A stretch of 64,000 nucleotides of DNA from Escherichia coli (GTDB lineage: Bacteria > Pseudomonadota > Gammaproteobacteria > Enterobacterales > Enterobacteriaceae), in NCBI RefSeq assembly GCF_048403405.1, contig NZ_CP183129.1; one strand, written 5' to 3'. This document shows positions 6,236 to 33,165 of this stretch, one piece after another; the stretch's first letter is position 1, and the number at the start of each line of letters is the position of its first letter. Made by a program: the position numbers and the translations under genes. The notes under the pieces were generated by a model. That model saw nothing but the letters and a program-made list of their open reading frames with translations, was not told where the DNA came from and did not search any database.

Positions 6236-6994
6236 TTAATGGATCACCTGCGATAAAAATGCCCTCGTACGCTCTGATTTAGGATGCGCAAAAAACTCAT
6301 CCGGTGCAGCTTGTTCCACTATCTCCCCACGATCCATAAAAATCACCCTGTCAGCGACGGTTCGTGCAAACCCCATCTCATGTGTTACACACAACATTGT
6401 CATACCCGACTGCGCCAGCCCAATCATCGTATCCAGCACTTCTTTCACCATCTCCGGATCGAGCGCCGACGTAGGTTCATCAAATAGCATGATCTTTGGT
6501 TTCATACAAAGTGAACGTGCTATGGCAACGCGTTGCTGCTGACCACCCGAAATCTGTCCGGGAAACTTCTGGGCATGTTCGGCAATTCTCACCCGCTCAA
6601 GGTAATGCATCGCCAGAGCTTCAGCCTCTTTTTTAGGCATCTTGCGTACCCAAATCGGTGCCAGGGTACAGTTCTGTAGAACGGTCAGATGAGGGAAGAG
6701 ATTGAAATGCTGAAAGACCATTCCCACTTCCTGCCTGACGCGCTCAATATTGCGGATATCTTCATTAAGTTCGATGCCATCCACCACGATCCGTCCCTGT
6801 TGATGTTCTTCCAGATGATTAATACAACGAATGGTTGTCGATTTACCGGAACCAGAAGGGCCACACAGAACGATCCGTTCTCCCGGTTGCACGGTTAAAT
6901 TTATATTTTTCAAAACATGGAATTGTCCATACCATTTATTGACGTTTTCCAGCGTAATCATCGCGTTAGCAGGTTGCAGTAAAATTTGGCTCAT
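6236..6994 (-). CDS. yhdZ: amino-acid ABC transporter ATP-binding protein
   Basis: 252 aa with Walker [10 protein letters not shown], signature [13 protein letters not shown] and Walker [12 protein letters not shown]; K-12 synteny. Confidence 0.93.
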
Positions 6995-17800: not shown

Positions 17801-17880
17801 ATAAAAAAGGCGCTTCCCCATGCCGAGTAGCGCCTTTTTAATCAAGCATTTAGCTAACCTGAATTAGTTCATGCCGTATT
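17801..17880. repeat. attL: 80-bp direct repeat (partner 33086-33165) with a duplicated fis 3' end and terminator
   Basis: Identical base-for-base to 33086-33165. It contains the reverse complement of the last 17 nt of fis (TTAGTTCATGCCGTATT) and the fis terminator hairpin. Confidence 0.9.
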
Positions 17881-20349: not shown

Positions 20350-20369
20350 GGCGACCGGGGGCGGTCGCC
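20350..20369 (-). terminator. rho-independent terminator for the leftward RHH operon (convergent with alpA)
   Basis: GGCGACCG gggg CGGTCGCC. On the minus strand it is followed by TTTGTTTTAT. Confidence 0.65.
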
Positions 20370-20436: not shown

Positions 20437-20616
20437 TCAGTCAGATTTGGTTCGTTCCAAGGTTTGCAACGAGAGCTTTTTCCTGTGCTCTTTAAGGAAT
20501 TTCTCAAGAGCAAACGAACAAGGTGCGAATCTTTCTGATTCATGTTCATGCGCTATATTTTTGCGTCGTCTCTTACGAGTTGGTGATGGTGTTTTGGTTG
20601 ATTCTGTGTCGCTCAT
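20437..20616 (-). CDS. possible small basic protein (59 aa), not in the ORF track
   Basis: Minus-strand ATG at 20616 preceded by AGGA. It translates to MSDTESTKTPSPTRKRRRKNIAHEHESERFAPCSFALEKFLKEHRKKLSLQTLERTKSD and sits between the RHH gene and the terminator. Confidence 0.35.
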   Translation of the reverse strand: MSDTESTKTPSPTRKRRRKNIAHEHESERFAPCSFALEKFLKEHRKKLSLQTLERTKSD

Positions 20617-20673: not shown

Positions 20674-20979
20674 CTATTCCTGCCCTTTGACCTTGCGTCG
20701 CTGGAGTTCTTCACGCGCGACGGTGACGAGTTGCCCGATCTCCTCGGCGGCTTTGACTCCGATTTTTTCAACCTGCGCTAGGGCATCGAGCGAAGAAACC
20801 AGGAGGTTTTCTCCGCTTCCTTCTGCCTGGCGGCGGGCGATTTCACCGCGCATGGCGGTTACTATGAATCCGGCGTTGCTTTCACCGTCCAGTTTTACGG
20901 ATTCCATGCCTTCAATAACATCATGCGGGATCCGAGCTGTCAGTGATTGTGATTTTGCGTTTTTTGAACCTGTAGCCAT
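20674..20979 (-). CDS. ribbon-helix-helix (Arc/CopG-like) DNA-binding protein, candidate island repressor
   Basis: 101 aa from MATGSKNAKSQSLTARIPHDVIEGMESVKL..., with the SD GAGAGGA 6 nt upstream. The pattern is an N-terminal beta-strand and two helices typical of RHH, with a coiled C-terminus. Confidence 0.6.
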   Translation of the reverse strand: MATGSKNAKSQSLTARIPHDVIEGMESVKLDGESNAGFIVTAMRGEIARRQAEGSGENLLVSSLDALAQVEKIGVKAAEEIGQLVTVAREELQRRKVKGQE

Positions 20980-21000
20980 CTGTAATCCTCTCAATGAAAG

Positions 21001-21077
21001 TGTAAGACAATATACACATAAAAAGTCTTACATAAAAGCATTGACATGTAAGCCACCTATAAATAAAGTTACTTACA
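21001..21077. promoter_or_regulatory. divergent control region with four TGTAAG half-sites in two inverted pairs
   Basis: TGTAAGAC (21001) / GTCTTACA (21025) and TGTAAGCC (21047) / ACTTACA (21071). TTGACA at 21041 is embedded among them. Confidence 0.5.
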
Positions 21078-21175
21078 CCTTGTTAATGCAAGGTGCAGAA
21101 ACGACGAAACCCCGCACTGTAGGAGCAGTAACGGGGCTTCTAACCACCAACGATAGCAAGATTATCGAGGCAGCT

Positions 21176-21379
21176 ATGAGAAATCATACCATACACCCGC
21201 AAGGGCGGGACTCGTACAACCTGAATAAATACATCTGGCGTTTTATCGCCCTGAGCACCGCACAACCGCGCGTGATTCACATCGTGGCCACCAGCGAACA
21301 GGAAGCACGCCAGCAATCCCCGGCTGGCTGCGTGATGGTATTCGCCGCCCGCATTCGTCAGGGGGGGTGCCATGCCTGA
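21176..21379 (+). CDS. Icd-like (host cell division inhibitor-like) small protein
   Basis: 67 aa: MRNHTIHPQGRDSYNLNKYIWRFIALSTAQPRVIHIVATSEQEARQQSPAGCVMVFAARIRQGG. The '..F.A.....P.V...VA.SE.EAR....G....FAARI' pattern matches proteins I recall being annotated Icd-like in P4-like elements. A GAGG SD is present. Confidence 0.6.
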   Translation: MRNHTIHPQGRDSYNLNKYIWRFIALSTAQPRVIHIVATSEQEARQQSPAGCVMVFAARIRQGGCHA

Positions 21380-21692
21380 TATGTCAAATTACCAGTACCT
21401 GATTAATCCGCATTTTAACTGTGAGCATGATATTGCTAAAAAGGTTTATTCCGCTGCGGATGGGGCTACTGACAATATATCAATGGCTGTTGCGTCAATT
21501 GGTAGCCTGATGTGGCATGCGTCAGAAAATGAGGAATATGACGCAAAGGCCATGCGCATTGATATGGGTAATATCGGTTTGTTACTGGCAATGCTTGGAC
21601 ATTTTGATATTTCGTTACGGTGCACCATTGAAAATGCCACAGATGCATTAAATGCCATAAAGAAAGCGAATACTGATTCAAATCGGGGATAA
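21372..21692 (+). CDS. hypothetical protein
   Basis: 106-aa ORF whose start overlaps the preceding stop (operon-like). No recognisable motif. Confidence 0.5.
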   Translation: MPDMSNYQYLINPHFNCEHDIAKKVYSAADGATDNISMAVASIGSLMWHASENEEYDAKAMRIDMGNIGLLLAMLGHFDISLRCTIENATDALNAIKKANTDSNRG

Positions 21693-21698
21693 ATAATC

Positions 21699-21998
21699 AT
21701 GAGAACATATTTATCTGGCTTGACTGCCAGCGGTTATGCACACCCTAAAATTATCCCCGGCGCTATTTATCTGGATAAGAACGGTAACAGAGTAACGGTA
21801 AAAGAACTGATGTTTGACCGTGTTTATTTTATTCGTGATGGCTATTCATTTCATAGTTCGCTGAACGTGGAGATCTTTATTTGCAGATTCCGGCGGGAAA
21901 TCCCGCTTTCCAGAAATAACCATGTGTCATGTATGGATGTTGATAAAAAACTACAGGAACTGAAAAACATGATTGCCGCGTGGAGAGAGCAGAAATGA
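21699..21998 (+). CDS. hypothetical protein
   Basis: 99-aa ORF whose stop overlaps the primase start (ATGA). No confident family assignment. Confidence 0.5.
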   Translation: MRTYLSGLTASGYAHPKIIPGAIYLDKNGNRVTVKELMFDRVYFIRDGYSFHSSLNVEIFICRFRREIPLSRNNHVSCMDVDKKLQELKNMIAAWREQK

Positions 21999-23812
21999 AA
22001 AAAGCGCCAAATTTAAAACACCAGCCGCGTGACAAAATGACGGAAGTCATCATTTTTGCGGGTAGTGATGCGTGGGCACATGCGAAGCAGTGGCAGGAAC
22101 AGGACGGGCGACTGGCAGGCGATAACGTGCCACCTGTCTGGCTTGGAGAGCAACAACTTGCCGAACTGGACAACCTGCAAATTGTACCGGACGGACGCTA
22201 TCGCGTGCGTCTCTATCAGGCGGGGTTATTGCGTCCGGGGCTTGTTAATACCATCGGGCAGAAACTGGCAGCGGCAGGTGTCAGGGATGCTGATTATTAC
22301 CCTGAAGGAATGCACAGCCAGAAACGGGAGAACTGGCGCGAATATCTGGAACGTGAGCGGGGAGAGCTGGCGGAAAAGAAAAAGGTAGTTGAACTGCCTG
22401 TAAAGAAAAAAGAGCGGGTAAAAGACGATAACGCTTCATCACTGGCGCTTAACCAGATGGGAGCAAGTCAACGCGGCGAAGTTCTCCTGGCACATTATGG
22501 CGGTGAACTGGCGATTCATGCCGACTCTGACACTGTTCACCATTACAACGGCGTTGTATGGGAGCCAGTACAGGATAAAGAATTACAGCGAGCTATGGCG
22601 CAGATTTTCATTGATGCGGAGATCAGCTATTCGCAGAACGCCATTAAATCGGCGGTCGATACCATGAAGTTAAGTTTGCCTGTAATGGGGAATACAGCCC
22701 GTAACCTGATTGGATTCAGTAACGGGGTATTTGATACCAGAACAGGTAATTTTCGGGAGCATAACAAAAACGACTGGTTGTTAATTGCCAGTGAATTACC
22801 TTTCAGCCCACCAGCAGAGGGGGAAACGCTGGCAACACATGCGCCGAATTTCTGGAAGTGGTTACGCCGTTCGGTGGCTGAGAATGACCGCAAGGCGGAT
22901 CGCGTACTGGCGGCATTATTCATGGTGCTGGCGAACCGGTACGACTGGCAGTTATTCATTGAGGTAACAGGTCCAGGGGGAAGTGGTAAAAGCGTGATGG
23001 CGGAGATTTGCACCATGCTGGCGGGTAAGGCTAATACAGTATCAGCAAGCATGAAGGCGCTGGAAGATGCAAGGGAACGTGCGTTAGTGGTTGGCTTTTC
23101 TCTGATTATCATGCCGGATATGACCCGCTACGCTGGTGATGGGGCAGGGATTAAGGCCATTACAGGCGGTGACAAGGTGGCAATTGACCCGAAACACAAA
23201 GCTCCCTACTCAACGCGTATTCCGGCAGTAGTGCTGGCGGTTAACAATAACGCCATGTCATTCAGTGACCGCAGCGGGGGGATCTCACGTCGTCGGGTGA
23301 TATTCAATTTTTCGGAAGTTGTACCGGAGAACGAACGTGATCCGATGCTGGCGGAAAAAATAGAAGGTGAGCTGGCGGTAGTGATTCGCCATCTGCTTAC
23401 ACGGTTTGCTAACCAGGACGAAGCCAGACGCCTGTTATATGAGCAGCAGAAATCTGAAGAAGCACTGGCGATAAAGCGAGAGGGGGATTCGCTGGTGGAC
23501 TTCTGCGGCTATCTCATGGCGTCGGTAATGTGTGATGGCCTGTTAGTGGGTAATGCTGAAATTGTGCCATTCAGCCCGCGCAGATATCTCTATCATGCCT
23601 ATCTGGCTTATATGAGGGCACATGGGTTTGGTAAACCTGTAACACTGACGCGCTTCGGTAAAGATATGCCGGGGGCAATGGCGGAATATGGCAGGGAGTA
23701 TATGAAACGGAAAACGAAGCACGGTTTGCGTTCAAACGTGACACTGACGGAGGAATCAGAAGACTGGATGCCATCATGTGTATCGGTCACTAATGACGAT
23801 AGCAAAAATTAA
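21995..23812 (+). CDS. P4-alpha-type primase / SF3 (D5-like) replicative helicase (pri-rep)
   Basis: Walker A VTGPGGSGKS and the downstream ITGGDKVAIDPKHKAPY...RRRVIFNF pattern of the 'phage/plasmid primase, P4 family, C-terminal domain'. The iteron origin lies immediately 3'. Confidence 0.88.
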   Translation: MKKAPNLKHQPRDKMTEVIIFAGSDAWAHAKQWQEQDGRLAGDNVPPVWLGEQQLAELDNLQIVPDGRYRVRLYQAGLLRPGLVNTIGQKLAAAGVRDADYYPEGMHSQKRENWREYLERERGELAEKKKVVELPVKKKERVKDDNASSLALNQMGASQRGEVLLAHYGGELAIHADSDTVHHYNGVVWEPVQDKELQRAMAQIFIDAEISYSQNAIKSAVDTMKLSLPVMGNTARNLIGFSNGVFDTRTGNFREHNKNDWLLIASELPFSPPAEGETLATHAPNFWKWLRRSVAENDRKADRVLAALFMVLANRYDWQLFIEVTGPGGSGKSVMAEICTMLAGKANTVSASMKALEDARERALVVGFSLIIMPDMTRYAGDGAGIKAITGGDKVAIDPKHKAPYSTRIPAVVLAVNNNAMSFSDRSGGISRRRVIFNFSEVVPENERDPMLAEKIEGELAVVIRHLLTRFANQDEARRLLYEQQKSEEALAIKREGDSLVDFCGYLMASVMCDGLLVGNAEIVPFSPRRYLYHAYLAYMRAHGFGKPVTLTRFGKDMPGAMAEYGREYMKRKTKHGLRSNVTLTEESEDWMPSCVSVTNDDSKN

Positions 23813-23824
23813 ACTTATGGAATA

Positions 23825-24049
23825 ACTGTTCACCACTGTTCACCCTGTCATAAATATCTTTTATATCAGTATATTATAGGGTTAACAGTTATTTATGAAC
23901 TGTTCACCAAACTATTCACTGTTCACCTTTTTGATTGTTTATTGAGCTTCAAGGGTGAACAGTGGTGAACAGTTGGTGAATAGTTTTTGTGAAACTGTTC
24001 ACCCCTTAACCTTATGAATTAAAAGATAAAATATCAAAAGGTGAACAGG
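23825..24049. repeat. replication-origin iterons: ACTGTTCACC decamers in both orientations around AT-rich spacers
   Basis: Direct copies at 23825, 23835, 23899, 23918 and 23994. Inverted copies (GGTGAACAGT) at 23954, 23964 and 24040 (9/10 match). Degenerate copies at 23911 and 23975. Confidence 0.75.
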
Positions 24050-24491: not shown

Positions 24492-25001
24492 TCAAAGCAT
24501 TGTTAACAAGGCGGACGCACCAGCACCAACGAGACTGGCTACCGTACTATTATTTAGTAAATCCTTAAGCAAATTTTTTGCCTGAGGATCTTGTGATTGA
24601 GAAACTTTTTCAACAAGTTCAGTTATGCTGAGATTTACAATAAGATTGTTATGCTCACCGAGTTGAACCTGTGTACCGGATATGTTACCAATGTTAAATG
24701 TATTTTGGCTAGATTGTTTTGGTTTATGTTCATTAGCAGTCAGATTCTCGACTTTTAATGTAAGCATGTGAGGGTGATTAGTACCAACATTGAGTGTACC
24801 TCCTGGTAAAAATGACATATCAATTACTTTTAATATTATTTCCCCCTTCCCTAGTTTTTGAGTGATTTCATCTCCAATATTAATATCTGGTTCTTCAGTA
24901 TAAGGGATTAGCACTTTTTTTTCAGCTGAGTTTCTTTTCCCCTTGTATTCAACTCCTGCGATTGTGAATTTTTCTGGATATGCCATGACGTTAAGATCCA
25001 T
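24492..25001 (-). CDS. hypothetical 169-aa protein: beta-rich N-domain, RHIM-like 'FNIGNISGTQVQLGEHNN' module, hydrophobic Gly/Ala-rich C-tail (candidate effector)
   Basis: Strong SD GAGGAG 7 nt upstream, 29 nt after the upstream gene's stop. The C-terminus is STVASLVGAGASALLTML. The motif translation was checked by hand against the DNA at about 24636-24707. Confidence 0.7.
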   Translation of the reverse strand: MDLNVMAYPEKFTIAGVEYKGKRNSAEKKVLIPYTEEPDINIGDEITQKLGKGEIILKVIDMSFLPGGTLNVGTNHPHMLTLKVENLTANEHKPKQSSQNTFNIGNISGTQVQLGEHNNLIVNLSITELVEKVSQSQDPQAKNLLKDLLNNSTVASLVGAGASALLTML

Positions 25002-25030: not shown

Positions 25031-25807
25031 TTAACTAGTAGATTTGAAAGTGTATTTTGTCTGTGTGTTAAGGTTTGATATTAGAGCTTCATAGTTTTCT
25101 TTACTCAGTAAGTTTTTTGAGTAGGCCTTCTTAAGAAGGTTTTTTGAGAGAGTAATAATTTCTTTTTCACCAGTTGATGCAATTTTTGAGAAGAACTCAG
25201 AGAGCTCTTGTATATTAATATTGTTATTTGTACCAAGTTGTACGTATTGGCTATTTACAGTAGCTATGTTGAATATGTTTTGTTTTGGATGCGTTTTTTT
25301 TAGCTTTTCAATTTCAGCATGTTCTATGATTTTTTGAGAGATACTTTCAATATAACCACTAACGTCTTTTTTTTCTGGGAAGGAAAACCCATCACCTCTT
25401 AATATTTTATCTGTTTCGGCCATTTCATAGTAAAGCCTGCGAATCATCACAAGTAATAGTAATTTAGCCTCCTCGATTGACTCCTCTATTGAGAATTGAC
25501 ATTCAATTGCTAACGCGGAGGTCTGCTCTAAAACAATTTCTGAGTTATTTTCAATGTAAGGATTGATAAAACCATTCCAAAAAATTTGAACGGGAGTACC
25601 TTTAAATGCCAAACCTTGATAGCATATTTCTGTTCCATCATATGCAGTAACTTTCATGGGGGGGCCTGCATTGAAAAATCGCCATCTATGAATCAGTTTG
25701 GTTAATCTTTCGTCAATCTCCCGAACTAATTTATAAGTCCTTTTGAACAATGGGGATGGTCGCATCCCAGGAACAGCAAGAATTTCTTTTGTCACTTGAA
25801 TCTCCAT
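25031..25807 (-). CDS. hypothetical 258-aa protein carrying the same 'FNIATVNSQYVQLGTNNN' module (candidate sensor/partner)
   Basis: Long ORF in an AT-rich segment and first gene of a two-gene operon. The motif was checked by hand against the DNA at about 25211-25282. No known catalytic motifs recognised. Confidence 0.65.
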   Translation of the reverse strand: MEIQVTKEILAVPGMRPSPLFKRTYKLVREIDERLTKLIHRWRFFNAGPPMKVTAYDGTEICYQGLAFKGTPVQIFWNGFINPYIENNSEIVLEQTSALAIECQFSIEESIEEAKLLLLVMIRRLYYEMAETDKILRGDGFSFPEKKDVSGYIESISQKIIEHAEIEKLKKTHPKQNIFNIATVNSQYVQLGTNNNINIQELSEFFSKIASTGEKEIITLSKNLLKKAYSKNLLSKENYEALISNLNTQTKYTFKSTS

Positions 25808-30078: not shown

Positions 30079-30435
30079 ATGGCAAGACCACCAAAAGCCC
30101 CCGCTTACCTGGATGAAATCGCGGTCAGGCAGTGGAAGGAAAAATCGCGCCAGCTTTCCGGGCGGGAAGACCTTACCCCCGCCGACTGGAGCAATCTGGA
30201 ACTGTATTGTGTTAACTACTCCATATACCGCAAAGCCGTCGAAGACCTTGCGACGCGCGGGTTCAGCATTGTTAACAGTCAGGGCAGCGAGAGCAGAAAC
30301 CCCGCACTGAGCGCAAAGGCTGACGCAGAAAGAATAATGATCAAAATGGCTTCTTTGCTGGGTTTTGACCCGGTAAGCCGTCGCAGAAATCCACCGGAAA
30401 CAGAGGAAGAGGACGAACTTGACCGCCTGGCATGA
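30079..30435 (+). CDS. terminase small subunit (P27 family)
   Basis: 118 aa from MARPPKAPAYLDEIAVRQWKE..., typical of the P27-family TerS N-terminus. The longer ORF-track start was rejected. Confidence 0.8.
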   Translation: MARPPKAPAYLDEIAVRQWKEKSRQLSGREDLTPADWSNLELYCVNYSIYRKAVEDLATRGFSIVNSQGSESRNPALSAKADAERIMIKMASLLGFDPVSRRRNPPETEEEDELDRLA

Positions 30436-33085: not shown

Positions 33086-33165
33086 ATAAAAAAGGCGCTT
33101 CCCCATGCCGAGTAGCGCCTTTTTAATCAAGCATTTAGCTAACCTGAATTAGTTCATGCCGTATT
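33086..33165. repeat. attR: 80-bp direct repeat overlapping the 3' end of the intact fis gene and its terminator
   Basis: Identical to 17801-17880. Positions 33149-33165 are the last five sense codons plus the stop codon of fis. Confidence 0.9.

What the first reader, a model, noticed from the sequence alone, without database searches (positions are those of the whole stretch)
20980..21175. Divergent control region: paired TGTAAG operators, RHH protein leftward, structured leader plus Icd-like gene rightward
Seen directly: four TGTAAG half-sites lie between the RHH gene (start 20979, minus) and the Icd-like gene (start 21176, plus). They form two inverted pairs of nearly equal span (21001-21032 and 21047-21077), with a TTGACA hexamer embedded among them. 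Downstream there is a long interrupted hairpin (about 21107-21139: CCCCG...ACTG-taggag-CAGT...CGGGG) whose loop displays an SD-like AGGAG. The rightward operon then runs through the Icd-like gene, two unknown genes and the primase-helicase. The layout recalls the P1 immI (c4-icd-ant) and P4 immunity regions, where a processed antisense RNA from the leader controls downstream genes. Inference: the RHH protein represses the replication operon through the TGTAAG dyads, and the leader may add RNA-level control.
Basis: partly seen in the sequence, partly recalled or inferred. Interest (0 to 1): 0.5.

Follow-up and report, generated by a model that had tools for sequence, protein, structure and literature searches.

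The report
Satellite repressor-operator switch plus antisense RNA
The control region of a phage satellite (a capsid-forming PICI) in E. coli pairs a small DNA-binding repressor and its four matching operator sites with a previously undescribed small antisense RNA over the first replication-operon gene, which may be the "missing" repression system of Gram-negative PICIs.

Summary

Repressor and operators. In about 125 related loci, a small ribbon-helix-helix (RHH)-type gene always lies divergent from an Icd-like gene. Each locus has 3-4 repeats at fixed positions over two back-to-back promoters. The repeat sequence changes with the RHH DNA-binding domain (at least 15 specificity classes). It does not follow AlpA, Icd, DUF4222 or the primase. 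Repression by the RHH protein is therefore well supported, though only by comparison.

Leader. This part of the reading needs correction.
- No C4/CI-like RNA is present, and the AGGAG loop is not conserved.
- The hairpins are selected on the opposite strand: 66 A·C against 1 G·U on the plus strand, and 96.8% of cells paired on the minus strand.
- The minus strand folds more stably in 44 of 44 loci.
- The hairpins fit a roughly 75-nt cis-antisense RNA. It has its own TAnnnT -10 inside the first icd codons, a 5' stem-loop complementary to the icd ribosome-binding site, and a terminator-like 3' hairpin.

Closest analogues. P22 immI (Mnt/Arc plus sar RNA) and pMV158 CopG plus RNA II are closer than P1 or P4. 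No experiment has been done, and I found no published description of this module.

The parts
20674..20979 (-). Gene for a 101-aa YlcI/YnfO-family protein. It has a predicted ribbon-helix-helix N-domain (strand about residues 12-18, helices 19-28 and 35-54) and a long C-terminal helix with an HhH-like motif. It is the putative satellite repressor.
21000..21009 (+). Operator half-site 1 (GTGTAAGACA). It overlaps the predicted start point of the leftward RHH transcript.
21009..21014 (-). Predicted -10 of the leftward (RHH) promoter: TATATT on the minus strand. The CAnTATAC motif is conserved in YlcI-type loci whatever the operator class.
   Evidence: Alignment table. Not called by the consensus scan because there is no good -35.
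21024..21033 (-). Operator half-site 2 (AGTCTTACAT on the plus strand; ATGTAAGACT read on the minus strand).
21041..21069 (+). Rightward promoter of the replication operon: TTGACA-17 nt-TAAAGT, with a predicted start near 21076.
   Evidence: 10 of 12 matches. The TTGAC -35 is conserved across loci.
21046..21055 (+). Operator half-site 3 (ATGTAAGCCA), directly abutting the -35.
21069..21079 (-). Operator half-site 4 (TTACTTACACC on the plus strand; GGTGTAAGTAA read on the minus strand). It covers the predicted start of the rightward transcript.
21076..21095 (+). Hairpin 1 (CACCTTG-ttaatg-CAAGGTG) at the predicted 5' end of the rightward mRNA.
   Evidence: Present in many but not all related loci. 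Its function was not tested.
21096..21180 (-). Predicted cis-antisense RNA, probably about 21176 to about 21102 (roughly 75 nt). Its 5' stem-loop is complementary to the icd SD and ATG: inner stem 21167-21163 / 21155-21151, outer stem 21176-21169 / 21148-21141. A spacer UUAGA follows. The 3' end is a GC-rich hairpin (21140-21106, core 21136-21110) followed by UUUCGUCGUUUCU.
   Evidence: Covariance model R1: 75.2 bits, E 7e-16, the only hit in the window. Folding: -34.5 kcal/mol, z -5.35, against -20.7 kcal/mol, z -1.69, for the plus strand. Covariation.
21183..21191 (-). Predicted promoter of the antisense RNA: extended -10 TGgTATGAT on the minus strand, inside icd codons 3-6.
   Evidence: TAnnnT is kept in 44 of 45 loci although the codons encode H, S, L, R or D. 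Third-position entropy is 0.15 bits for codons 1-12 against 0.55 bits for codons 13-66. Inference only; there is no mapped transcription start.
21176..21379 (+). Icd-like small ORF (67 aa), the first gene of the replication operon. Its stop codon overlaps the next start codon.
   Evidence: NF033153 E 5.4e-20. It aligns with the P4 ORF that follows CI RNA.
21372..23812 (+). Rest of the operon: a 106-aa ORF, a DUF4222 protein, and a P4-type primase/helicase.

Best explanation
The region is the immunity and replication switch of a 15.3-kb capsid-forming PICI-type satellite.

(A) Repressor and operators. The divergently transcribed 101-aa YlcI/YnfO protein is a ribbon-helix-helix repressor. It binds four roughly 10-bp half-sites, (G)GTGTAAGnn, centred about 20-25 bp apart. 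Sites 1 and 2 bracket the -10 and start of its own leftward promoter, giving autoregulation. Sites 3 and 4 bracket the spacer, -10 and start of the rightward TTGACA/TAAAGT promoter. That promoter drives icd-like, orf106, DUF4222 and the primase, so binding keeps replication off. The variable residues of the N-terminal strand and the variable 4-6 bp of the half-site together define many immunity specificities.

(B) Antisense RNA. A roughly 75-nt RNA is transcribed leftward from a -10 element inside the first icd codons. It is fully complementary to the icd SD and start codon. Pairing would block icd translation. The operon genes overlap, and in P1 and P4 translation of the homologous ORF prevents Rho-dependent termination. 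By that analogy, blocked translation would shut off the downstream replication genes.

What is shown and what is inferred. The anatomy, conservation, covariation and strand asymmetry are shown. Binding, transcription of the antisense RNA, and the polarity step are inferred. How repression is lifted is unknown. Read-through from the helper-induced alpA promoter, running antisense across the RHH operon, is a speculative option.
For: Operators.
- Dyad pattern: 2 occurrences against 0 in 100 shuffles.
- Identical architecture in 43 genome loci from Enterobacterales genera, 4 E. coli loci and 80 IMG/VR loci. Repeats lie about +21, +46, +67 and +91 from the RHH ATG, in the framework GGTG-[variable]-(T)CA.
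- At least 15 classes in which all sites of a locus change together: TGTAAGAC, TGTTTCA, TATTTCA, GTGTTCA, CGATTCA, GCTGACA, GTGTACAC, GGTAATTACC and others.
- The TGTAAG cluster occurs only with SQS[LV]TARI-type RHH N-domains. Among those loci AlpA identity ranges 48-100%, the primase 47-100% and DUF4222 34-100%. Loci with a 99% identical primase but a different RHH lack the cluster.

RHH fold.

Antisense RNA.
- On the plus strand, non-Watson-Crick cells are 66 A·C against 1 G·U, and 14 of 18 pairs show A·C.
- On the minus strand, 96.8% of cells pair, 13 pairs change on both sides, and the covariation score is 0.389 against at most 0.12 in slid controls.
- The independent IMG/VR set gives 106 G·U against 0 A·C.
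- The minus strand is more stable in 44 of 44 loci, by 12.4 kcal/mol on average. In the window it is -34.5 against -20.7 kcal/mol.
- Model R1 hits once in the window and in every one of the 80 IMG/VR loci, always on the minus strand abutting the icd ATG.
- The TAnnnT -10 is conserved across different codons, and synonymous variation is reduced in codons 1-12.

Precedent for the logic. P4 CI RNA causes premature termination of the replication operon (PMC4825925, PMC3632133). In P22, sar antisense RNA acts together with the Mnt and Arc repressors (PMC2629481, PMC13397905).
Against: - Nothing here is experimental: no footprint, no mapped transcription start, no Northern blot.
- The operators lie next to the RHH gene, so part of the protein/site co-variation could reflect linkage within one recombining cassette.
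- One strand motif, SQQLNARFP, goes with two different half-sites: GTGCGATTCA in the short forms and TGGTATTCAC in the long forms. The strand alone therefore does not set specificity.
- The fold assignment is weak by sequence (Pfam none; hhalign probability 4%) and absent by Foldseek.
- The consensus promoter scan did not call the antisense promoter or the leftward promoter.
- The U-tract after the 3' hairpin is poor in about 9 loci that lack hairpin 1.
- G·T tolerance would also fit a minus-strand single-stranded DNA structure.
Confidence: 0.6

Rival explanations
1. The sense-strand leader folds into a structured RNA, like P1 C4 or P4 CI, that is processed from the transcript and controls downstream genes. 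The hairpin loop displays an SD-like AGGAG.
For: The Icd-like gene is homologous to the ORF downstream of P4 CI RNA. The hairpin exists, and the sense leader folds moderately well when hairpin 1 is included (z -3.3).
Against: There is no C4, isrK or c4-a1b1 match here at E<=10 and no C4 match in 20 related loci scanned at Rfam gathering thresholds, while P4 scores 74.9 bits. The loop sequence is hypervariable. On the sense strand 66 stem cells are A·C mismatches against 1 G·U. The sense interval 21095-21180 folds no better than 13 of 200 shuffles.
Confidence: 0.07
2. The minus-strand structure is not a separate small RNA. It is either a terminator or insulator for antisense transcription coming from inside the operon, or part of a long leader of a second RHH transcript that starts in icd.
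For: The structure is clearly on the minus strand. In some loci the U-tract is weak, so read-through toward the RHH gene is conceivable.
Against: A -10-like TAnnnT lies at a fixed short distance upstream of the 5' stem-loop. The 5' half, which is complementary to the icd ribosome-binding site, is nearly invariant. Most loci have a U-rich tail.
Confidence: 0.15
3. The hairpins act as single-stranded DNA on the minus strand, for example as a priming or single-strand initiation signal for the satellite primase.
For: G·T pairs are tolerated in DNA hairpins, so the strand asymmetry alone does not separate RNA from DNA. A primase is encoded downstream.
Against: Iteron-like repeats typical of an origin lie after the primase gene (23815-23909), where PICI origins are reported (PMC6092414, PMC10111431). 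The element exactly overlaps the icd SD and ATG and has a promoter-like -10.
Confidence: 0.05
4. The TGTAAG repeats are bound by another satellite protein (AlpA, integrase or primase) rather than by the RHH protein.
For: AlpA is the only experimentally shown regulator of Gram-negative PICIs, where it acts as an activator (PMC6092414).
Against: The repeat sequence does not follow the AlpA, primase or DUF4222 alleles and follows only the RHH N-domain. Loci with unrelated RHH subfamilies carry their own palindromes.
Confidence: 0.05

Closest known systems
Phage P22 immI region (mnt / Pant-arc-ant plus sar antisense RNA)
   Same: In both, a ribbon-helix-helix repressor gene is transcribed divergently from the promoter it represses. 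In both, a small antisense RNA is started inside the 5' part of the target gene, covers its ribosome-binding site and ends at a hairpin (PMC2629481, PMC13397905; details of Psar are from my own knowledge of Liao et al. 1987).
   Different: The target here is an Icd-like leader ORF heading a replication operon, not an antirepressor. There is no second RHH (Arc) in the operon. No Rfam family matched on either strand. The host element is a satellite, not a phage.
Plasmid copy-number control by repressor plus countertranscript (pMV158 CopG + RNA II; R1 CopB + CopA/tap/repA)
   Same: Both use dual control of a replication initiator operon: a small repressor (CopG is an RHH protein) and a cis-antisense RNA with a 5' target-recognition stem-loop and a 3' terminator hairpin. 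In R1 the RNA blocks translation of a short leader ORF that is coupled to the replication gene (my own knowledge).
   Different: Here the repressor gene is divergent rather than inside the operon. The element is integrated and quiescent rather than a steady-state plasmid. No sequence similarity was detected.
P4 immunity (CI RNA, seqA/seqC) and P1 immI (c4-icd-ant)
   Same: All have an Icd-like small ORF at the head of the operon. All control that ORF at the RNA level to gate downstream genes (PMC4825925, PMC3632133).
   Different: In P4 and P1 the RNA is processed from the sense leader and acts at upstream and downstream complementary sites. It belongs to Rfam C4, which does not match here. 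P4 has no protein repressor at this promoter.
Stl/Rpr master repressors of Gram-positive PICIs (SaPIs)
   Same: The position and orientation match: a repressor gene divergent from the excision/replication operon (PMC6092414).
   Different: Stl proteins are larger HTH-type repressors relieved by helper-phage proteins. For Gram-negative PICIs the literature states that a global repressor is unclear and that AlpA is an activator (PMC6092414).

Membership tests
YlcI/YnfO family (NCBIfam NF041551) | Match to the 42-residue N-terminal model above the curated cut-off | tested here: met
   71.3 bits against a cut-off of 30, E 4.9e-20. RefSeq annotates the identical protein in the same way.
Ribbon-helix-helix (Arc/MetJ/CopG) DNA-binding fold | An N-terminal strand followed by two helices, similar to solved RHH proteins | tested here: inconclusive
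Ribbon-helix-helix (Arc/MetJ/CopG) DNA-binding fold | Dimer that inserts a two-stranded sheet into the major groove of repeated operator sub-sites | not testable with these tools
   Indirect support only: 3-4 repeated sites per locus that co-vary with strand residues.
C4 antisense RNA family (Rfam RF01695; P1 C4, P4 CI) | Match to the covariance model (long closing stem enclosing two hairpins) on the sense strand upstream of icd | tested here: not met
   No hit at E<=10 in 20900-21300. No C4 match in the window or in 20 related loci at gathering thresholds. Positive control: P4 scores 74.9 bits.
Any described RNA family (Rfam 15, 4227 models, both strands) | Match at or near a gathering score | tested here: not met
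   Only three chance-level hits (SprD 15.5 bits against a gathering score of 100, mt-tmRNA, mir-92).
Cis-encoded antisense RNA (countertranscript) | Conserved secondary structure selected on the strand opposite the target mRNA | tested here: met
Cis-encoded antisense RNA (countertranscript) | Own promoter and terminator giving a discrete small transcript | tested here: inconclusive
   A conserved TAnnnT -10 and a GC hairpin followed by a U-rich tail in most loci. Neither was called by the simple consensus scans. No transcript data are available.
Host cell division inhibitor Icd-like (NCBIfam NF033153) | Match above the curated cut-off | tested here: met
   71.2 bits against a cut-off of 25. 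Inhibition of cell division itself was not tested.
Capsid-forming PICI (cf-PICI, EcCIEDL933 type) | About 15 kb; int and alpA; primase; own HK97 capsid, protease, portal, head-tail connector, HNH, TerS and TerL; no tail genes; flanked by att repeats | tested here: met
   Gene content. 80-bp direct repeats at 17801 and 33086. Family description in 10.1101/2022.09.08.507074. Induction by a helper phage was not tested.

The most novel reading that the evidence does not exclude
YlcI/YnfO-type RHH proteins are the long-sought master repressors of Gram-negative PICIs and cf-PICIs. They would form a hypervariable set of immunity specificities, at least 15 repressor/operator classes exchanged as cassettes. 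They would be backed by a nearly invariant antisense RNA that could cross-silence the replication operons of co-resident satellites. Helper-induced AlpA would then act by overriding this double lock rather than by simple activation.
Probability: 0.4. Interest if true: 0.75.

Novelty: new variant of a known kind. Interest (0 to 1): 0.62.

Why it matters
Gram-negative PICIs are widespread. Sequence matching this 1.1-kb region occurs in 1455 of 5426 complete E. coli genomes. These elements move defence and virulence genes.

The founding paper states that whether they have a global repressor is unclear, and that only the activator AlpA is known (PMC6092414). A later genome-organisation survey mentions only Bro proteins and C4/isrK immunity RNAs in this zone (PMC10111431).

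A conserved repressor/operator cassette plus a new antisense RNA directly upstream of the replication operon would give:
- a concrete, testable model for how these satellites stay silent;
- an explanation for how several satellites can coexist in one genome, with different repressor specificities but a shared RNA;
- a natural library of orthogonal RHH/operator pairs.

Tried and rejected
- C4/CI-like leader RNA: rejected.
- BoxA/nut-like reading of the conserved UCUNACCA after the hairpin: considered because CUCUUAC is shared with lambda nutR boxA (from memory). Dropped because the motif is explained as the 3' arm (GUGG) and spacer of the minus-strand 5' stem-loop.
- tRNA-like minihelix or RNase P substrate (hairpin plus ACCA): dropped because ACCA lies 3-4 nt too far from the stem and the structure is on the other strand.
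- Antisense ORF 21140-21373 (77 aa): not conserved; its length ranges 18-106 aa across loci.
- Second copy of the hairpin arm at 30296: no hairpin there, and a match of that length is at chance level.
- Foldseek against the PDB and a profile search of PDB sequences gave no RHH hit.
- K-12 ynfO was inspected in the hope of using K-12 transcription-start data, but it has no Icd-like neighbour.
- The search for related loci with the Icd alignment failed because no stretch was conserved enough; a single protein was used instead.
- PADLOC found nothing for the accessory genes.
- Literature searches for an RHH repressor, or an antisense RNA upstream of the replication operon, in PICIs found nothing. 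C4/isrK-type immunity RNAs are reported for some Gram-negative PICIs. The library lacks most subscription journals.

Full report
Context. The window is E. coli chromosome, 100% identical to strain 4621. The finding lies in a 15.3-kb island bounded by perfect 80-bp direct repeats at 17801-17880 and 33086-33165, between yhdJ and fis. The island encodes integrase, a 245-aa ORF, AlpA, a YlcI/YnfO protein on the minus strand, an Icd-like protein, a 106-aa ORF, DUF4222 and a P4-type primase. After three accessory genes come an HK97 capsid, protease, portal, head-tail connector, HNH, TerS and TerL. This is the gene set of a capsid-forming PICI (10.1101/2022.09.08.507074).

Observation. TGTAAG is not enriched in the window as a whole (21 found, 23.5 expected). 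However, four copies fall within 77 bp, and the dyad TGTAAG-N14-21-CTTACA occurs twice here and never in 100 shuffles. The rightward promoter TTGACA-17-TAAAGT (21041-21069) matches 10 of 12 consensus positions.

Repressor and operators: the layout. A profile of the 101-aa protein retrieved 43 loci from Enterobacterales genomes, including Enterobacter, Xenorhabdus, Photorhabdus, Erwinia, Serratia, Yersinia, Pantoea and Pectobacterium. The Icd-like protein retrieved 80 satellite-sized IMG/VR contigs. In every case a small RHH-type gene of 59-110 aa is divergent from an Icd-like gene across 136-205 bp. In the YlcI-type loci, 3-4 repeats sit at nearly fixed distances from the RHH start (about +21, +46, +67, +91). 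They are built on the frame GGTG-[4-6 variable bp]-(T)CA. Between sites 1 and 2 lies a conserved CAnTATAC, which reads TATAnT on the minus strand and is the likely -10 of the RHH promoter. A conserved TTGAC -35 directly precedes site 3, and site 4 covers the predicted rightward transcription start. Binding would therefore shut both promoters.

Repressor and operators: specificity. The variable core differs between loci but is the same at all sites within one locus. I counted at least 15 classes: TGTAAGAC, TGTTTCA, TATTTCA, GTGTTCA, CGATTCA, GCTGACA and TTTAACAC, plus GTGTACAC, GGTAATTACC, TGGTACGTACCA and CTGGAATCCAG for more distant RHH subfamilies. The cross-tabulation separates the candidate binders.
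- The TGTAAG cluster occurs only with RHH N-domains of the SQS[LV]TARI type. These are the window, 14 IMG/VR loci, Enterobacter soli, and two short-form proteins.
- Among those loci AlpA is 48-100% identical to the window's, the primase 47-100% and DUF4222 34-100%.
- Loci with a 99% identical primase and 94-97% identical Icd but another RHH have no such cluster.

The operators therefore follow the RHH protein and nothing else.

Leader: not a C4/CI RNA. Rfam finds no C4 or any other family here, while the same search finds P4's CI RNA at 74.9 bits. The ORF after P4's CI RNA does align with the Icd-like family. The gene is therefore homologous to its P4 counterpart, but the RNA is not.

Leader: conserved structure. 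On the plus strand, 89% of cells pair, 12 pairs change on both sides, and the covariation score is 0.239 against 0.04-0.08 for slid controls.

Leader: the strand. The exceptions to pairing are almost all A·C (66 cells in 14 of 18 pairs) against a single G·U. A·C on the plus strand is G·U on the minus strand. Realigned as the minus strand, and with an added outer stem that only forms there, 96.8% of cells pair, 13 pairs change on both sides, and the covariation score is 0.389 against at most 0.12. In the window the minus-strand interval 21180-21095 folds at -34.5 kcal/mol (z -5.35). The same interval on the plus strand gives -20.7 kcal/mol (z -1.69). The minus strand is the more stable one in 44 of 44 distinct loci, by 12.4 kcal/mol on average.

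Leader: model search. A covariance model of the minus-strand element hits once in the window (75.2 bits), not at all in P4, and at least once in every one of the 80 IMG/VR loci. All hits are on the minus strand, and in each locus one abuts the icd ATG.

What the minus-strand element looks like. It begins with a 5' stem-loop whose arms and loop are the exact complement of the icd SD, start codon and the conserved UCUNACCA. A short spacer follows. It ends with a GC-rich hairpin followed by UUUCGUCGUUUCU, which has the shape of an intrinsic terminator. The tail is U-rich in most loci and poor in about nine. Just upstream on the minus strand, inside icd codons 3-6, lies TGgTATGAT. Across loci this position keeps TAnnnT although the codon encodes H, S, L, R or D, always with T in the third position. 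Third-position entropy of icd codons 1-12 is 0.15 bits against 0.55 bits for the rest of the gene. Together these features fit a cis-antisense RNA of about 75 nt (about 21176 to about 21102). Its transcription is inferred, not shown.

Mechanism proposed. The RHH repressor holds both promoters. Any rightward transcripts that escape are met by the antisense RNA, which occludes the icd ribosome-binding site. The icd stop overlaps the next start codon, and the following genes also overlap. In P4, and from my own knowledge also in P1, blocking the homologous ORF leads to premature termination (PMC4825925, PMC3632133). Loss of icd translation should therefore silence the primase. Release is unknown. 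AlpA is the helper-induced activator of these islands (PMC6092414), and a Pseudomonas AlpA is a processive antiterminator (PMC7969949, PMC9371919). Between alpA and the control region the only terminator is specific to the minus strand (20369-20350). Read-through from alpA across the RHH operon is therefore possible, but this is pure speculation.

Comparison with known systems and novelty. The nearest known layout is P22 immI: the RHH repressors Mnt and Arc plus sar antisense RNA over the ant ribosome-binding site (PMC2629481, PMC13397905). Next is plasmid copy control by CopG plus RNA II, or by CopB plus CopA and tap (my own knowledge). P1 and P4 share the Icd-like ORF and the logic, but not the RNA. 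Both component types are known kinds. The RNA has no Rfam family, and the YlcI/YnfO family has no assigned function. The accessible PICI literature describes no repressor or antisense RNA at this position. I rate it a new variant of a known kind, with real interest for satellite biology.

Noticed in passing
window 17801-17880 and 33086-33165: Perfect 80-bp direct repeats flank the island. They are probable attL and attR of a 15.3-kb cf-PICI-type satellite inserted between yhdJ and fis.
   Followed up: partly
window 23815-23835 and 23889-23909: Two iteron-like repeats (TTAT..AACTGTTCACCA) lie directly after the primase stop codon. They probably mark the satellite's replication origin.
   Followed up: no
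window 20350-20369 (minus strand): A strong intrinsic terminator (GGCGACCGCCCCCGGTCGCC + TTTGTTTTAT) ends the leftward RHH operon. It has no U-tract on the plus strand, so alpA transcripts could run on, antisense to the RHH operon.
   Followed up: partly
window 20437-20616 (minus strand): A 59-aa ORF (phrog_21027, unknown function) lies downstream of the RHH gene in the same operon. A similar small gene is annotated at this position in other E. coli islands (L048, L049).
   Followed up: no
window 24492-25001 and 25031-25807 (minus strand): Two accessory genes lie between the primase and the capsid gene, where satellites often carry defence genes. They have no Pfam or PADLOC match.
   Followed up: partly
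window 21197-21210: CCCGCAAGGGCGGG inside icd codons 8-12 is invariant, including third codon positions, in 56 distinct loci. It lies where a -35 or upstream element of the antisense promoter would be. It remains unexplained.
   Followed up: partly
window 21076-21095: A hairpin (CACCTTG-ttaatg-CAAGGTG) lies at the predicted 5' end of the rightward mRNA and overlaps operator half-site 4. It is present in many but not all related loci. The strand it is selected on and its role were not resolved.
   Followed up: partly
L088 1176-1261 and 1921-2005; L049 2564-3221: Some satellites carry two tandem Icd-like genes. In L088 each has its own copy of the antisense RNA motif.
   Followed up: no
window 20674-20850 (RHH residues 46-86): The C-terminal half of the long RHH forms resembles the helix-hairpin-helix motif of Hef (E 0.01). 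It is absent from the 60-aa forms, which have a different site geometry.
   Followed up: no
L130 (K-12 Qin prophage) 6757-6990: The family namesake ynfO in K-12 is divergent from the terminase gene nohA and has no Icd-like neighbour. The family therefore also occurs in a different, uncharacterised context in lambdoid prophages.
   Followed up: partly
L033, L035, L036, L037: The Rfam int-alpA RNA motif (RF02996) is present in several related islands but not at gathering score in this window. L007 carries an isrN match.
   Followed up: no
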